Source: Clostridiales bacterium
GTDB taxonomy: Bacteria; Bacillota; Clostridia; Oscillospirales; Oscillospiraceae
Assembly (NCBI GenBank): GCA_012838345.1
Contig: DUPK01000063.1
Span: 8,738 to 72,737 of the forward strand
Direction: 5' to 3'
Length of the DNA: 64,000 nt
Part shown: positions 6,549-20,934 of the stretch, in pieces
How the letters are laid out: the number at the start of each line of letters is the position of its first letter
Numbering within the stretch: position 1 is the stretch's first letter
Position numbers and translations under genes: made by a program
The notes under the pieces: model-generated
Databases searched by the model: none
Told to the model about the DNA's origin: nothing
The model's input: the letters and a program-made list of their open reading frames with translations, nothing else

Positions 6549-6756
6549 TTCCGGTGTTTGCCACGCCTTTGACCTGTCGGCCCGGTCACGATAGAAAACG
6601 TAGGCCGGCGCGTCCTCGGCTGACAAAAGCCCGCTAAGCAAGCTCAATACATTATTTTATTATGTCAGCACCAAGCCCGCCGGATTTGGGGCGGGCGGGT
6701 CATGTTGGCGGCGCAAAGGCGTCGTCAACCAATAACCTTAAAGGAGGAAATATTGC

Positions 6757-13034: not shown

Positions 13035-13276
13035 ATCGCAGTTGATTTTATTGTCCAAGCGGTGCCGGGAAGTTAAAGCCCCGCCGCCCGGACACTGGTT
13101 TTCGCCTTAATGACTGCGATTCGGCCTAGTATTACATTTTTTCAATGCCGTCTGCTATACTGCGGCACGCGGCAGTAACGAAACAGACAACCGATGGCGA
13201 AAGGTCATTGCAGATGCTTTGAAACCGCGCCACGAAAACAGCCTTCGGCTGTAACTCTATTAAGGAGGACTAATTA

Positions 13277-17723: not shown

Positions 17724-18478
17724 TTCAGATCAAATCCGCAAAGGAAATTGAGATGATGCGCCGTGCCTGCGCTATCACAGCGGCTGCCCGCGCTTTAGCA
17801 GGGAAATTGATAGCGCCCGGCGTAAGCACTTCTGAGATTGACAAAGCTGTGCATGACTACATAGTCATGCAGGGGGCGGTACCTTCCTTTCTGAACTACA
17901 ACGGTTACCCGAAGAGCATCTGCATCTCAATAAACGACGAGGTGATACACGGAATACCGGGTAGCCGTGTGGTTGAAGAAGGCGACATTGTCAGCGTTGA
18001 TGTGGGAGCCTTTATAGGCGGTTTTCATGGAGACTGCGCCGCAACCTTCATAGCGGGCGAGGCGGACGAGAGCGTGAAAAGGCTCGTCGAGGTCACTCGG
18101 CAGTGCTTTTTCGAGGGGCTCCGGTTCGCGCGCCCCGGCTATCGGGTGTCGGACATCTCCCACGCTATCCAGATTTATGCGGAATCCTTTGGGTATTCCG
18201 TGGTCAGAGATTACGTCGGACACGGCGTGGGTGCAAAGCTCCACGAGGACCCTCAGGTCCCGAACTTCGGAAAACCGGGCCACGGCCCGCGGCTCATTCC
18301 GGGAATGACTTTGGCCATCGAGCCTATGATAAACATGGGAGAGCCTAACATACGGCTTTTGAGTGACGGATGGACTGTGGTAACAGCAGACGGTAAGCCG
18401 TCGGCGCACTATGAGAACACTGTTCTTATTACAAACGGTGAACCGGAAATATTGACGGTGGTCGACGGGAAATGCTGA
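17720..18478 (+). CDS. map: Type I methionine aminopeptidase
   Basis: Motifs IKSAKEIEMMRRA, NGYPKSICISINDEVIHGIP, DVGA...G.HGD and AIEPMIN. It has a 4-nt overlap with adk. Confidence 0.96.
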   Translation: MIQIKSAKEIEMMRRACAITAAARALAGKLIAPGVSTSEIDKAVHDYIVMQGAVPSFLNYNGYPKSICISINDEVIHGIPGSRVVEEGDIVSVDVGAFIGGFHGDCAATFIAGEADESVKRLVEVTRQCFFEGLRFARPGYRVSDISHAIQIYAESFGYSVVRDYVGHGVGAKLHEDPQVPNFGKPGHGPRLIPGMTLAIEPMINMGEPNIRLLSDGWTVVTADGKPSAHYENTVLITNGEPEILTVVDGKC

Positions 18479-18786
18479 TGGAAATCGAAAAATCCCATAT
18501 TGTGATTTCCCTTGCCGGAAGAGATAAAGGAGAGCTGTTTTTTGTTTTGGACAGGGACGCAAGGAGCGTACTGTTGGCGGACGGAAAAATAAGAAAGGTG
18601 GAAAAGCCGAAGCACAAGAACATAATGCACGTCCGCTTCGTGGCTGAAAGCGATTCCGAAACCGCCAGAAAAATAAAAAACGGAGGCAAGGTTTCAAACA
18701 AGGAGTTAAGAAATACGCTGGCTGCCTTCAGAGCCGGCGCAGGAAATGATAAGGGAGGAACATACGTTTGGCAAAAGACGATGTAA
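18472..18786 (+). CDS. KOW-domain RNA-binding protein (conserved small gene between map and infA in Clostridia)
   Basis: [14 protein letters not shown]-like motif and a basic C-terminal half. It overlaps map by 7 nt and infA by 19 nt. Confidence 0.7.
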
Positions 18787-18986
18787 TCGAGCTTGAGGGC
18801 AGGGTTATTGAATCGTTGCCCAACACGATGTTCACGGTTGATATCGGCAACGGACATACTATACTGGCACATATTTCCGGGAAACTCAGGATGAACTTCA
18901 TCCGCATACTCCCAGGCGATAAGGTGACGGTACAGATGTCGCCGTACGACCTGACTCGTGGCCGTATAACGTGGAGAAGCAAGTAA
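18768..18986 (+). CDS. infA: Translation initiation factor IF-1
   Basis: [69 protein letters not shown] is canonical IF-1. It has a TTG start preceded by AAGGGAGG. Confidence 0.97.
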
Positions 18987-19043
18987 GTCTGAAAGCGGGT
19001 ACGCGCCCGTTTTGCGACGGACTAAACATGGAGGTTATAAAAG

Positions 19044-19157
19044 ATGAAAGTCAGACCATCAGTCAAGCCCATGTGCGAAAAATGCAAGATTATAAGGCGC
19101 AAGGGCAAGGTCAGGGTAATCTGCGACAATCCTAAGCACAAGCAGAGACAGGGTTAA
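19044..19157 (+). CDS. rpmJ: 50S ribosomal protein L36 (not in ORF track, 37 aa)
   Basis: My own translation gives [37 protein letters not shown] with a stop at 19155-19157. This is canonical zinc-type L36, preceded by GGAGG. Confidence 0.95.
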
Positions 19158-19303
19158 AATAAAGTTCATATTCCGTTAGATGCTGGTCTAAACAGAGAGA
19201 TTTTGTCTGGTCCGCCGATATTCTGGATAAAATTCAGAGTAAAAGCGCTGCGCCGACGAAACTCGATCTGAAGTCCGGACATTTCGGTGTGAACACGCCA
19301 AAC

Positions 19304-19427
19304 GGCCGCGTAGCTAACCACAGCGTACACATTTGAACCCGTGTTGAACGGGCCGGTTTCGGCGCACACGTACCGCGCCCTGAAGGGCAAGCGCGGATTT
19401 AAGTGTGTATGCTGTGGTTACGCGGCC
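19304..19427 (+). ncRNA. Structured RNA element in the rpmJ-rpsM spacer (27-bp closing helix plus internal hairpins); function unknown
   Basis: 19304-19311 pairs with 19420-19427 (8 bp). After a 4-nt bulge (19312-19315), 19316-19334 pairs with 19401-19419 (19 bp, including G19325-U19410 and U19332-G19403). Internal hairpins are cccgt-gttga-acggg (19338-19352) and ccgcgc...gcgcgg (19373-19396). The G-U pairs would be C-A mismatches on the minus strand. Confidence 0.6.
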
Positions 19428-19510
19428 GAACCGGAACCAGGAGCCCGCGGGAAAAGCGGTCTCTAACGAACAATCGTTTTAACTTAAACGAAAGGAATGA
19501 TTAAAAAAGT

Positions 19511-19879
19511 ATGGCGAGAATTTCCGGCGTTGATTTGCCTAAGGACAAAAGGATTGAGGTAGCCCTCACCTATGTCTACGGCATTGGCCAGAAAAGAGCG
19601 AAAGATATACTCGCGGCTACGGGAATCAATCCCGATACCAGAGTAAAAGACCTGACCGGAGAGCAGGAGGCTCAGCTGCGCGAGTTTATCGATAAGAACT
19701 ATATTGTCGAAGGCGACCTGAGAAGATCCGTTGCACTGGATATAAAGAGGCTTATCGAGATAGGCTGCTACAGAGGCTTCCGTCACAGGAAGGGGCTTCC
19801 CGTCAGAGGTCAGCGTACAAAGACTAACGCGCGCACGCGCAAGGGTCCGAAGAGAACAATTGCCAATAAGAAGAAGTAA
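19511..19879 (+). CDS. rpsM: 30S ribosomal protein S13
   Basis: Motifs [26 protein letters not shown] and [25 protein letters not shown]. Confidence 0.98.
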
Positions 19880-19894
19880 GGGAGGGATATGTAA

Positions 19895-20293
19895 ATGGCA
19901 AAGAATGTAAAGCAACGTGTCAGAACAAAGCGCCGTGAAAGAAAGAACATCGAAAAGGGCGCGGTGCATATCCGCTCCTCGTTTAACAACACTATGGTAA
20001 CCATAACCGATACAAACGGCAACGCCATAGCCTGGGCATCCTCCGGCGGAATGGGATTCCGCGGCAGCAGAAAGTCCACACCCTTTGCGGCTCAGACTGC
20101 CGCCGAGGCAGCGGCGAGGGCCGCCATGGAGCATGGACTCAAGACCGTCGAGGTCTTTGTCAAGGGCCCCGGATCCGGCCGCGAAGCTGCGATTCGCGCT
20201 CTCCAGTCCGTAGGCCTTGAGGTAACCATGATTAAAGACGTAACACCTATCCCGCACAATGGCTGCCGTCCGCCTAAGAGACGCCGCGTTTAA
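19895..20293 (+). CDS. rpsK: 30S ribosomal protein S11
   Basis: Motifs [30 protein letters not shown] and [18 protein letters not shown]. Confidence 0.98.
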
Positions 20294-20307
20294 GGAGGAA
20301 ATGTAGT

Positions 20308-20934
20308 ATGGCAAGATATACAGATGCAGTATGCCGCCTTTGCCGCAGAGAGGGCCAAAAGCTCTTTTTGAAGGGTGACAGATGCTATACAGATAAGTGC
20401 GCAGTCGTTAGACGCTCCTATGCGCCTGGTCAGCATGGCCAGAGGAGGGCAAAGGTTTCCGAATACGGCAACCAGCTTAGAGAGAAGCAGAAGGCAAAGA
20501 GATATTACGGTGTTCTGGAGAGACAGTTTGAGGGTTACTTCGAACTTGCTTCCAAGAGGAAGGGGCAGACCGGCGAGAACCTCCTGTCCATCCTTGAGAG
20601 CCGACTTGACAACGTGGTTTACAGACTTGGCTTTGCCATGTCCCGCGCCGAGGCAAGGCAGCTTGTCCGACACGGACACTTCACCGTAAACGGAAGGAAG
20701 GTCAACATCCCTTCCTATCTCGTGAAGCCCGGCGAAGTTATTACGCTCAAGGAATCTTCCAAGAGCCTTGAGAAGATTAAGTCGGTCGTAGAGGCCAACT
20801 CCTTCCGCCAGCCGCCGAAGTGGCTTGATTATGACAGGGACAACTTGGTGGCAAAGGTTGTAGCACTTCCCACCAAGGAGGACATCGATCTGCCTATTCA
20901 AGAGCATCTCATCGTTGAGCTTTATTCTAAGTAA
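20308..20934 (+). CDS. rpsD: 30S ribosomal protein S4
   Basis: Motifs [26 protein letters not shown] and S4 domain [27 protein letters not shown]. It remains in the alpha operon after rpsK. Confidence 0.98.

What the first reader, a model, noticed from the sequence alone, without database searches (positions are those of the whole stretch)
19158..19510. 353-nt GC-rich spacer between rpmJ and rpsM with a 27-bp strand-specific helix closing a multi-hairpin junction
Seen in sequence:
- The rpmJ-rpsM spacer, normally a few tens of nucleotides in Firmicutes, is 353 nt here and is not AT-rich.
- 19304-19334 pairs with 19401-19427: 8 bp, a 4-nt bulge, then 19 bp.
- Two of these pairs are G-U/U-G (19325-19410 and 19332-19403). 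They would be C-A mismatches in a minus-strand transcript, so the fold is specific to the operon mRNA.
- The helix encloses hairpins at 19338-19352 and 19373-19396. The latter has a nested ccc-tgaa-ggg.

Established knowledge: S4 autoregulates the alpha operon through a structured leader upstream of rpsM in E. coli. Long perfect dsRNA helices are RNase III substrates.

Inference: this could be an S4-responsive (or other r-protein) leader, an RNase III processing site that uncouples infA-rpmJ from rpsM-rpsK-rpsD-rpoA-rplQ, or a MITE-like insertion. The 74-codon minus-strand ORF here is unconvincing.
Basis: partly seen in the sequence, partly recalled or inferred. Interest (0 to 1): 0.6.

Follow-up and report, generated by a model that had tools for sequence, protein, structure and literature searches.

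The report
Structured insert between rpmJ and rpsM
The long gap between two ribosomal-protein genes is a real, single-copy, transcribed RNA structure built around a 31-base-pair helix that one genus of uncultured biogas-reactor Clostridia has kept unchanged; it most likely marks a cutting or stability point in the operon's messenger RNA, but its function is not shown.

Summary
The rpmJ-rpsM spacer is 353 nt, against a family median of 45 nt. It folds far better than shuffles (z -8.3), and only on the plus strand.

The helix is slightly longer than reported:
- 10 bp at 19303-19312/19419-19428
- a 4-nt bulge
- 21 bp at 19317-19337/19398-19418, with three G.U pairs

It is not a MITE: there is one copy in the genome and none elsewhere in 301 genomes of the family. 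It matches no Rfam family, including the S4 Alpha_RBS operator.

It is confined to one genus of uncultured digester Clostridia. Six lineages keep the 15-17-nt helix cores letter for letter, although synonymous sites nearby are only about 50% identical. The helix base and top change with pairing kept, and the enclosed loop is free (30-81 nt). Sister lineages carry a different 24-bp helix at the same place.

Metatranscriptome contigs show the spacer is transcribed with rpmJ and rpsM. In two species they break at the helix arms. That fits cleavage, but it also fits a reverse-transcription block.

Best reading (about 0.35): an intercistronic mRNA processing or stability element, an RNase III-type substrate. 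Rivals are a structurally insulated expansion segment and a protein operator. Interest is moderate.

The parts
19044..19157 (+). rpmJ (L36), the upstream cistron. RNA contigs run from it into the spacer.
   Evidence: [40 protein letters not shown]; PF00444 on identical contigs; RNA contigs X4 18717-19441, X2 18984-19391, X7 18700-19316
19164..19293 (+). 5' module: a stem-closed, multi-stem domain of about 130 nt. The closing stem is 19164-19175 with 19283-19293. It is present only in the G000/L088/L091/G002 clade.
   Evidence: Folds alone at -48.3 kcal/mol. The consensus structure is kept in 5 sequences, but without double compensatory changes. Absent from G003 and L093. It has the highest contig depth in RNA runs: X11 at 13.5x, X21 up to 37x in the G002 species.
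19303..19312 (+). Basal stem, 5' strand (pairs with 19419-19428).
   Evidence: The pairs vary with pairing kept: C-G to U-A, C-G to U.G, G-C to G.U.
19313..19316 (+). 4-nt asymmetric bulge (GCUA here; ACUA, GCAA and longer in relatives).
19317..19337 (+). Main helix, 5' arm. The core ACCACAGCGUACACAUU is identical in all 7 sequences from 6 lineages.
   Evidence: 17 of 21 pairs never vary. Four-fold degenerate sites of the flanking genes are only about 50% identical between the most distant carriers.
19338..19397 (+). Variable apex enclosed by the helix. Here it holds two hairpins, 19338-19352 and 19373-19396.
   Evidence: The sequence between the invariant cores is 30-81 nt in relatives. It carries indels that are not multiples of three and cannot be aligned between clades.
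19398..19418 (+). Main helix, 3' arm. The core UGUGUAUGCUGUGGU is identical in all 7 sequences.
19419..19428 (+). Basal stem, 3' strand.
19440..19464 (+). Small hairpin P3, conserved by structure with compensatory changes.
   Evidence: A-U 4 / G-C 3; C-G 5 / A-U 1 / U.G 1; C-G 4 / U-A 2 / U.G 1. Folded.
19474..19491 (+). Hairpin next to the ribosome binding site (UCGUUU-UAACUU-AAACGA), conserved throughout the genus.
   Evidence: Invariant in 7 of 7 sequences. Present in all five genus genomes.
19491..19510 (+). Shine-Dalgarno region AAAGGAAUGAUUAAAAAAGU before the rpsM AUG. GAAAGGAAUGAUU is conserved across many genera of the family.
19511..19879 (+). rpsM (S13), first gene of the rpsM-rpsK-rpsD-rpoA-rplQ block.
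   Evidence: RNA contigs join the 3' part of the spacer to rpsM: X1 19429-19880, X5 19409-19539, X8 19361-19511.

Best explanation
The spacer is a non-coding, single-copy, lineage-specific expansion of the rpmJ-rpsM intercistronic region. It is transcribed as part of the operon mRNA.

It is built of independently closed RNA modules:
- a 5' domain at 19164-19293;
- a 31-bp bulged helix with a free apex at 19303-19428;
- a small hairpin at 19440-19464;
- an older hairpin next to the ribosome binding site.

The long helix is an RNA element of the plus strand under strong purifying selection. I think it most likely acts as an intercistronic processing or stability determinant. In this model it is a double-stranded substrate for the cell's RNase III. 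Cleavage separates the infA-rpmJ part of the transcript from the rpsM-rpsK-rpsD-rpoA-rplQ part. The structured 5' domain then shields the new 3' end of the upstream fragment, so the two halves can decay at different rates.

Shown: the structure, strand specificity, single copy, narrow distribution, sequence conservation, co-transcription, and discontinuity of RNA contigs at the helix arms.

Inferred: that the discontinuity is cleavage, that RNase III is the enzyme, and that the outcome is differential stability.
For: - **Strong plus-strand fold:** z = -8.3 on plus against -3.8 on minus. The helix alone is -51 kcal/mol as a duplex.
- **RNA-level selection on the operon strand:** seven pair positions are G.U or U.G on the plus strand in at least one lineage, and the G.U at 19325-19410 is kept in all 7 sequences. 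The model scores 150.7 bits on plus and 53.2 on minus.
- **Purifying selection:** helix cores of 17 and 15 nt are identical in 6 lineages, while four-fold degenerate sites in infA, rpmJ and rpsM are 50-71% identical. The base and top of the helix change with pairing kept: C-G to U-A, U-A to C-G, several G.U to G-C or A-U. The apex is free to vary.
- **A long helix is the common denominator at this site in the genus:** the lineages that lack this helix carry a different conserved 24-bp helix in the same place.
- **No ORF:** frames are not conserved.
- **No internal promoter or terminator** predicted in the spacer.
- **The genome encodes RNase III:** PF14622, 154 bits, 226-aa open frame.
- **Metatranscriptome contigs, G000.** They run from infA/rpmJ into the spacer and from the spacer into rpsM. 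Six of eight upstream contigs that reach the helix end at 19297-19326; two cross the 5' arm. Downstream contigs start at 19361, 19409 and 19429.
- **The same pattern in a second species (G002):** ends at 2928 and 2929, which is 7-8 nt into the main 5' arm; starts at 2829, 2827 and 2816.
- **The inverted repeat does not break assembly as such:** DNA-run contigs of several kb cross the helix.
- **Precedent:** RNase III cleavage in the long rplL-rpoB intercistronic region of E. coli, cited in PMC13001810.
Against: - **No read-level end mapping.** Only low-depth contigs (2-14x) were available.
- **The break positions are spread rather than a single site.** Some RNA contigs cross one arm or both: X4 all of it, X2 and X49 the 5' arm, X8 the 3' arm, X21 most of it.
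- **A technical explanation fits as well.** Poor priming or reverse transcription through a -78 kcal/mol hairpin would give the same picture, and DNA carry-over cannot be excluded.
- **RNase III does not normally need a fixed 15-17-bp sequence.** Letter-for-letter invariance of both arms is more than this model predicts.
- **Covariation is thin.** Two pairs have double changes, each from a single event between two clades. The shuffle control is not significant for counts of pairs.
- **Most genera of the family do without any such element**.
Confidence: 0.35

Rival explanations
1. Structurally insulated expansion segment. Foreign or newly arisen sequence was inserted into the loops of older spacer hairpins. 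It is tolerated because each insert folds into a stem-closed module that loops itself out. This keeps the rpmJ stop and the rpsM ribosome binding site effectively close. The helix is selected only as the clasp, and the element has no regulatory function of its own.
For: - Every module is closed on itself. The unpaired linkers add up to about 54 nt, close to the family median spacer of 45 nt.
- L093 carries both the outer stem of the sister lineages' hairpin and the long helix. The basal stem GGCCGCGUA/UACGCGGCC matches GGCCGCAU/AUGCGGCC of the shorter type. The long helix therefore looks like an insertion at the apex of an older hairpin.
- G005 has an independent, single-copy 277-nt insert in the loop of the hairpin next to the ribosome binding site, closed by AUUUAAGGC/GCCUUAAAU.
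- Spacer length in the genus varies over 110-392 nt.
- The dip in RNA contigs can be an RT artefact.
Against: A clasp needs pairing, not sequence. At saturated synonymous divergence one would expect G.U to G-C drift and compensatory changes in the central 15 bp. None is seen, and a central G.U is kept in all lineages. This reading also does not explain why the 5' module is kept at about 75% identity across the clade.
Confidence: 0.25
2. Protein-binding operator. The invariant bulged helix is the binding site of a ribosomal protein of the operon (S4, S13, S11 or L17) or of another RNA-binding protein. It gives feedback control of the alpha-operon genes. This would be a Clostridial counterpart of the E. 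coli S4 operator.
For: - Sequence-level invariance of a helix with a conserved bulge and a conserved G.U is typical of protein recognition sites.
- rpsD lies in this operon.
- How the alpha operon is regulated in Clostridia is unknown (review PMC10931766).
Against: - No Rfam match, including Alpha_RBS and the S4 leader families.
- The helix ends 82 nt upstream of the AUG and does not involve the ribosome binding site.
- No primary-sequence resemblance or complementarity to 16S or 23S rRNA of family members beyond shuffled controls.
- Sister lineages with near-identical r-proteins carry a helix of different sequence.
- Most genera have no room for an operator, with spacers of 12-45 nt.
Confidence: 0.15
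3. The source of a hairpin-derived small RNA, or the target of one. One arm of the helix acts in trans by base pairing after excision, or is bound by a conserved RNA. That would fix its sequence and, through pairing, the sequence of the other arm.
For: It would explain why both arms are invariant in sequence. The 5' module appears more abundant than its surroundings in two RNA data sets.
Against: - The helix domain itself is the least represented part in RNA runs. Of the RNA runs found only one holds all of it.
- The genome has no complementary site beyond chance 12-13-mers.
- There is no rRNA complementarity.
Confidence: 0.08
4. A DNA-level element. This could be a relic of a mobile element with terminal inverted repeats, an invertible segment flanked by inverted repeats, or a paired protein-binding site on DNA.
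For: Two inverted near-identical 15-17-bp sequences flank a variable segment.
Against: - It is single copy in this genome and across the family, with no plasmid or phage relatives.
- The mismatches between the arms are almost all G.U-type on the operon strand.
- The spacing between the invariant cores varies from 30 to 81 bp, so there is no fixed helical phasing.
- All seven same-species contigs that span the helix have one orientation.
- The apex of one clade is not the reverse complement of the other.
Confidence: 0.03

Closest known systems
RNase III processing hairpins in long intercistronic regions of r-protein/RNA polymerase operons (E. coli rplL-rpoB spacer; also rpsO-pnp and phage T7 early mRNA sites)
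   Same: A long, nearly perfect RNA helix with a small bulge sits in an unusually long spacer inside a translation-gene operon. It is transcribed with both neighbours. The expected effect is separation of the two halves of a polycistronic mRNA. The genome has RNase III.
   Different: Cleavage is not demonstrated here. There is no sequence relation. The element is confined to one genus. Its arms are conserved in sequence far beyond what RNase III substrates are known to need (my knowledge of E. coli proximal and distal box rules).
Intervening sequences (IVS) and expansion segments of rRNA
   Same: A long closing stem encloses an apex of free sequence and length. The distribution among close relatives is sporadic. 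Growth is by insertion at the tip of an existing hairpin. IVSs are removed by RNase III cutting in the closing stem.
   Different: It sits in an mRNA spacer, not in rRNA. It carries no ORF. Excision is not shown. The 23S rRNA genes of the two family members looked at are of ordinary length.
E. coli alpha-operon S4 operator (Rfam RF00140 Alpha_RBS)
   Same: The genomic place is the same (directly upstream of rpsM in an operon that contains rpsD), and it is a structured RNA.
   Different: There is no model match at E<=10. It is a plain bulged helix rather than a nested pseudoknot. It does not include the ribosome binding site. Sub-threshold Alpha_RBS hits in other genera come from rpsM coding bases.
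Intercistronic stabiliser hairpins such as REP elements (for example malE-malF) and MITEs
   Same: A stable hairpin between cistrons that can block exonucleases and produce unequal expression within an operon.
   Different: REPs and MITEs are repeated families. This element is unique in the genome and absent from other loci in 301 related genomes.

Membership tests
Rfam RF00140 Alpha_RBS (S4 operator of the alpha operon) | Covariance-model score at or above the gathering score of 38 bits | tested here: not met
   No hit at E<=10 in 18500-20500 or in 19150-19570.
Rfam RF00140 Alpha_RBS (S4 operator of the alpha operon) | The structure includes the rpsM ribosome binding site and start codon | tested here: not met
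   The helix ends at 19428 and the AUG is at 19511. The ribosome binding site lies outside the helix.
Rfam RF00140 Alpha_RBS (S4 operator of the alpha operon) | Binding of S4 and translational repression | not testable with these tools
   Needs binding assays or toeprinting.
Other curated RNA families (r-protein leaders, 6S, SRP, riboswitches, ribozymes) | Any Rfam 15 model match | tested here: not met
   0 matches at E<=10. The same holds for the spacers of genus relatives at E<=1.
MITE / REP-type repeated palindromic element | Multiple copies in the genome or in related genomes | tested here: not met
   One copy in G000. Model hits occur only at this locus, in 3 of 301 family genomes.
MITE / REP-type repeated palindromic element | Terminal inverted repeats | tested here: met
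   31-bp imperfect inverted repeat. However, the mismatches are G.U-type on one strand only.
RNase III substrate | About two turns (20 bp or more) of double-stranded RNA in a transcript | tested here: met
   A 21-bp helix plus a 10-bp basal stem, present in RNA-run contigs.
RNase III substrate | RNase III encoded by the organism | tested here: met
   G000:C63:16251-16646, PF14622 154 bits.
RNase III substrate | Staggered cleavage of both arms in vivo or in vitro | tested here: inconclusive
   RNA contig ends cluster at the arms in two species. The positions are spread, some contigs cross the arms, and an RT block explains the pattern as well.
Intrinsic terminator | A GC-rich hairpin followed by a U tract | tested here: not met
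   No terminator-like site on the plus strand in 18700-19700. The helix is followed by AACCGGAACC.
Invertible DNA segment (inverton) | Both orientations of the segment between the inverted repeats occur | tested here: not met
   The seven same-species contigs that span the helix all have one orientation. Reverse-complement alignment of the apices between clades is not significant. The read-level test was not possible.
Protein-coding gene (small ORFs 19341-19466 plus strand, 19166-19390 minus strand) | A reading frame conserved between relatives | tested here: not met
   Indels of 5, 6 and other lengths lie in the apex, and frames differ between G000, G002, G003 and L088.

The most novel reading that the evidence does not exclude
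The invariant, bulged 15-17-bp helix core with its fixed G.U pair is a sequence-specific recognition site for a protein or RNA not yet identified. It would form a new, genus-restricted cis-regulatory RNA controlling the alpha operon (S13-S11-S4-RpoA-L17) in Clostridia, where regulation of this operon is an open question. More broadly, mRNA spacers in this genus would grow like rRNA expansion segments, by apical insertion into regulatory hairpins.
Probability: 0.15. Interest if true: 0.6.

Novelty: new variant of a known kind. Interest (0 to 1): 0.35.

Why it matters
How Clostridia balance the products of the alpha operon is unknown. They keep rpsD next to rpsM, as E. coli does, but lack the E. 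coli operator.

A conserved, strand-specific helix sits exactly at the junction between the infA-rpmJ tail of the spc cluster and rpsM. It is a concrete, testable candidate for post-transcriptional uncoupling of the two halves.

The locus also shows a spacer that grew from about 40 nt to 350-390 nt by stem-closed insertions at hairpin tips, independently in sister lineages. That is a tidy natural example of how structured non-coding RNA is added inside essential operons.

The practical reach is limited. The element is confined to one genus of uncultured digester bacteria.

Tried and rejected
- **Rfam scans** of the region at permissive thresholds found nothing. Weak Alpha_RBS hits in other genera turned out to align the rpsM coding bases.
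- **MITE or repeat:** the own-genome blast, short-arm blast and family-wide covariance-model search found no second copy.
- **Mobile origin:** no plasmid or phage similarity.
- **Coding potential:** ORFs on both strands lose their frame between species.
- **rRNA mimicry or complementarity of the arms:** the best ungapped matches to 16S and 23S of two family members are no better than shuffled arms. The genus MAGs themselves hold no 16S.
- **Inverton:** the apex of one clade is not the reverse complement of the other, and all same-species contigs share one orientation.
- **JGI metagenome scan** for the conserved pattern next to the ribosome binding site found nothing. More lineages came instead from exact-protein look-ups.
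- **A search for an abundant excised hairpin RNA** showed the opposite: the helix domain is the least represented part in RNA runs.
I used the genome-collection locus L061 instead.

Full report
**What is there**

The window carries the usual end of the spc cluster and the alpha operon on the plus strand: adk, map, a 104-aa ORF, infA, rpmJ (19044-19157), then 353 nt without a credible gene, then rpsM (19511-19879), rpsK, rpsD, rpoA and rplQ.

In the 16-kb S10-spc-alpha cluster, almost all gaps between genes are 1-18 nt. The exceptions are rpsJ|rplC (208 nt), rpsN|rpsH (242 nt), rpmJ|rpsM (353 nt) and rpsD|rpoA (78 nt).

The spacer folds at -145.2 kcal/mol on the plus strand (z = -8.3; none of 100 dinucleotide shuffles as good). 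It folds at -119 kcal/mol on the minus strand (z = -3.8).

- 19303-19312 pairs with 19419-19428 (10 bp).
- A 4-nt bulge lies at 19313-19316.
- 19317-19337 pairs with 19398-19418 (21 bp).
- G.U pairs lie at 19325-19410, 19332-19403 and 19335-19400.

The spacer as a whole is not GC-rich (49.9% against 51.6% for the genome). Only the helix domain is, at 61%.

**Architecture**

Folding the parts and the alignment gives four modules that each close on themselves:
- a 5' domain at 19164-19293 (-48 kcal/mol);
- the helix domain at 19303-19428 (-78 kcal/mol);
- a small hairpin at 19440-19464;
- a hairpin at 19474-19491 that abuts the Shine-Dalgarno region.

The unpaired linkers between them add up to about 54 nt.

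**Not a repeat, not a known family, not coding**

- The 353 nt occur once in the 2.02-Mb assembly, and the arms have no second copy.
- A covariance model of the helix domain, run over 301 genomes of the same family, hits only this locus in three genomes of the same genus. Plus-strand scores are about three times the minus-strand scores.
- Plasmid and phage collections give nothing.
- Rfam 15 gives no match at E<=10, either in 2 kb or in the spacer alone.
- ORFs on both strands lose their frame between species because of indels in the apex.
- No promoter-like or terminator-like site is predicted on the plus strand inside the spacer.

**Distribution and history**

In 33 genomes of the family the rpmJ-rpsM spacer is 12-392 nt, with a median of 45. 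Only the window's own genus exceeds 200 nt.

The genus consists of uncultured "Clostridiales bacterium" MAGs from anaerobic digesters. Exact-protein look-ups added lineages from biogas, sludge and food metagenomes.

Two kinds of spacer exist in the genus.

*Type AB* has the ACCACAGCGUACACAUU / UGUGUAUGCUGUGGU helix:
- G000 (353 nt), L088 (368), L091 and L092 (360) and G002 (365) also have the 5' domain.
- G003 (184 nt) and L093 (172 nt) have the helix without the 5' domain.

*Type C* has a different 24-bp helix, GUAGGGCCG..UGCGGCCGG / UCGGCCGUA..CGGCCCUAC, at the same place. It occurs in G004 (115 nt), L114, L116 and L117 (110-113 nt), and in G005 (392 nt).

Three observations bear on how the spacer grew:
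- L093 has the outer stem of type C as well as the AB helix. The AB basal stem (GGCCGCGUA/UACGCGGCC) matches GGCCGCAU/AUGCGGCC of type C. The long helix therefore looks like an insertion at the tip of an older hairpin, although a deletion in type C is not excluded.
- G005 has a separate, single-copy 277-nt insert in the loop of the hairpin next to the ribosome binding site.
- Close outgroups, with RpsM 88-89% identical, have spacers of 32-41 nt.

**Selection**

Across the seven AB sequences from six lineages, 95.8% of helix cells are standard pairs. Seventeen of the 21 main-helix pairs never vary.

The base and the top of the helix change with pairing kept: C-G to U-A, U-A to C-G, and several G.U to G-C or A-U. 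Only two pairs show double changes, each from a single event. Formal covariation support is therefore thin.

The small hairpin at 19440-19464 has clearer compensatory changes.

The striking point is sequence invariance. The 17-nt and 15-nt cores, including one G.U pair, are identical in all lineages. Yet four-fold degenerate sites of infA, rpmJ and rpsM are only 50% identical between G000 and G003 or L093, and 71% between G000 and G002. The apex between the arms cannot be aligned.

Nearly all non-Watson-Crick pairs are G.U on the operon strand, which points to selection on the RNA and not on the DNA.

**Transcription**

Sixteen metatranscriptome runs were laid on this stretch, available only as low-depth assembled contigs; fourteen of them gave contigs that enter the tally.
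- Contigs run from infA/rpmJ into the spacer: X4 18717-19441, X2 18984-19391, X7 18700-19316.
- Contigs run from the spacer into rpsM: X1 19429-19880, X5 19409-19539, X8 19361-19511.
- The spacer is therefore part of the operon transcript.

Coverage drops at the helix. About 8 of 14 runs cover 19275-19299, but only about 2 cover 19325-19349. Six contigs end at 19297, 19306, 19316, 19321, 19323 and 19326.

The second species (G002, locus L061) shows the same thing. Upstream contigs end 7-8 nt into the main 5' arm (2928 and 2929). Downstream contigs begin just past the main 3' arm (2829, 2827, 2816).

DNA-run contigs cross the helix without trouble, so the inverted repeat does not break assembly.

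However, some RNA contigs cross one arm or both: X4, X2, X8, X49 and X21. The break points are spread. A very stable hairpin is expected to be under-represented in random-primed cDNA. The data therefore show that the helix exists in RNA, but they cannot separate cleavage from a technical block.

The 5' domain has the highest contig depths: X11 at 13.5x, and up to 37x in X21 for the G002 species. That hints that it accumulates, but contig depth is a poor measure.

**Interpretation**

- The MITE reading is refuted.
- The S4-operator reading has nothing in its favour beyond location. There is no model match and no involvement of the ribosome binding site. There is no rRNA resemblance or complementarity. 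Sister lineages carry a helix of different sequence, and most genera with the same operon have no room for an operator.
- What all members of the genus share is a long (24-31 bp), conserved, plus-strand helix between rpmJ and rpsM, in a genome that encodes RNase III.

The best-supported mechanism is therefore an intercistronic processing or stability element. The RNase III site in the long rplL-rpoB spacer of E. coli is a precedent (PMC13001810). The closing stems of rRNA intervening sequences are a structural analogue. I put this at about 0.35.

The main rival, at 0.25, is that the inserts are expansion segments made harmless by their own closing stems. The modular, stem-closed build, the short effective linker length and the independent insert in G005 all speak for it. 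The letter-for-letter conservation of the core speaks against it, and that conservation equally exceeds what RNase III is known to require.

That unexplained invariance keeps open a sequence-specific partner, either protein (0.15) or RNA (0.08).

**Novelty and interest**

This is a new, narrowly distributed variant of a familiar kind of feature: a structured intercistronic hairpin in a translation operon. It has an unusually clear evolutionary history and an unexplained degree of sequence conservation.

Regulation of the alpha operon in Clostridia is an open question (PMC10931766). Nothing here shows that this element answers it. Interest is moderate, at 0.35.

Noticed in passing
L011:1499-1613 (G004), L012:1811-1890 (G005), L114:917-990, L116:194-266, L117:129-202: Sister lineages of the genus carry a different, conserved 24-bp helix (GUAGGGCCG..UGCGGCCGG / UCGGCCGUA..CGGCCCUAC) at the same place between rpmJ and rpsM. 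Only G.U-type changes occur among the five sequences. L093 has its outer stem as well as the long ACCACAGCG helix.
   Followed up: partly
L012:1535-1812 (G005, minus strand): An independent 277-nt structured insert sits in the loop of the hairpin next to the ribosome binding site before rpsM. It is closed by AUUUAAGGC/GCCUUAAAU. It is single copy in G005 and absent from the other five genus genomes.
   Followed up: partly
L016 (G010), L017 (G033), L025 (G009), L029 (G034): rpmJ-rpsM spacers of 122-157 nt: Four other genera of the family share a conserved motif, CCGCAU..GGGGCUCCCCUCCGGCGGGAAUAAGCC..UGCGG, ending about 35 nt before the rpsM AUG. No Rfam family matches it. It is a candidate leader RNA in its own right. 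The sub-threshold Alpha_RBS hits there are due to rpsM coding bases.
   Followed up: partly
window 13035-13276 and 6549-6756: Two further long spacers lie inside the r-protein cluster: rpsN|rpsH at 242 nt (z -1.9) and rpsJ|rplC at 208 nt (z -2.7). In both, only the gene-proximal ~100 nt are conserved in genus relatives (75-92% identity) and the 5' parts are not. This is the same pattern as at rpmJ|rpsM.
   Followed up: partly
window 19490-19513 and alignment A2: GAAAGGAAUGAUU, followed by about 8-10 nt and the AUG, is conserved before rpsM across many genera. The spacing from Shine-Dalgarno to AUG is unusually long (about 13 nt), and an out-of-frame AUG lies inside the motif. If the family has a common translational operator for rpsM, it is more likely to be here than in the long helix.
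   Followed up: no
window 19103-19297; L061:2956-3030: The 5' module of the spacer has the highest contig depths of the region in metatranscriptomes: X11 at 13.5x, X21 summed up to about 37x in the G002 species. It may accumulate as a stable fragment derived from the rpmJ 3' end.
   Followed up: no
window 18472-18786: A conserved 104-aa ORF lies between map and infA. It overlaps both neighbours by a few bases, has no Pfam hit on record in the contig tables, and is present throughout the family.
   Followed up: no
G000-G005 (whole genomes): None of the six genus MAGs contains a 16S rRNA gene detectable with RF00177. rRNA-based tests therefore had to use other genera of the family.
   Followed up: yes
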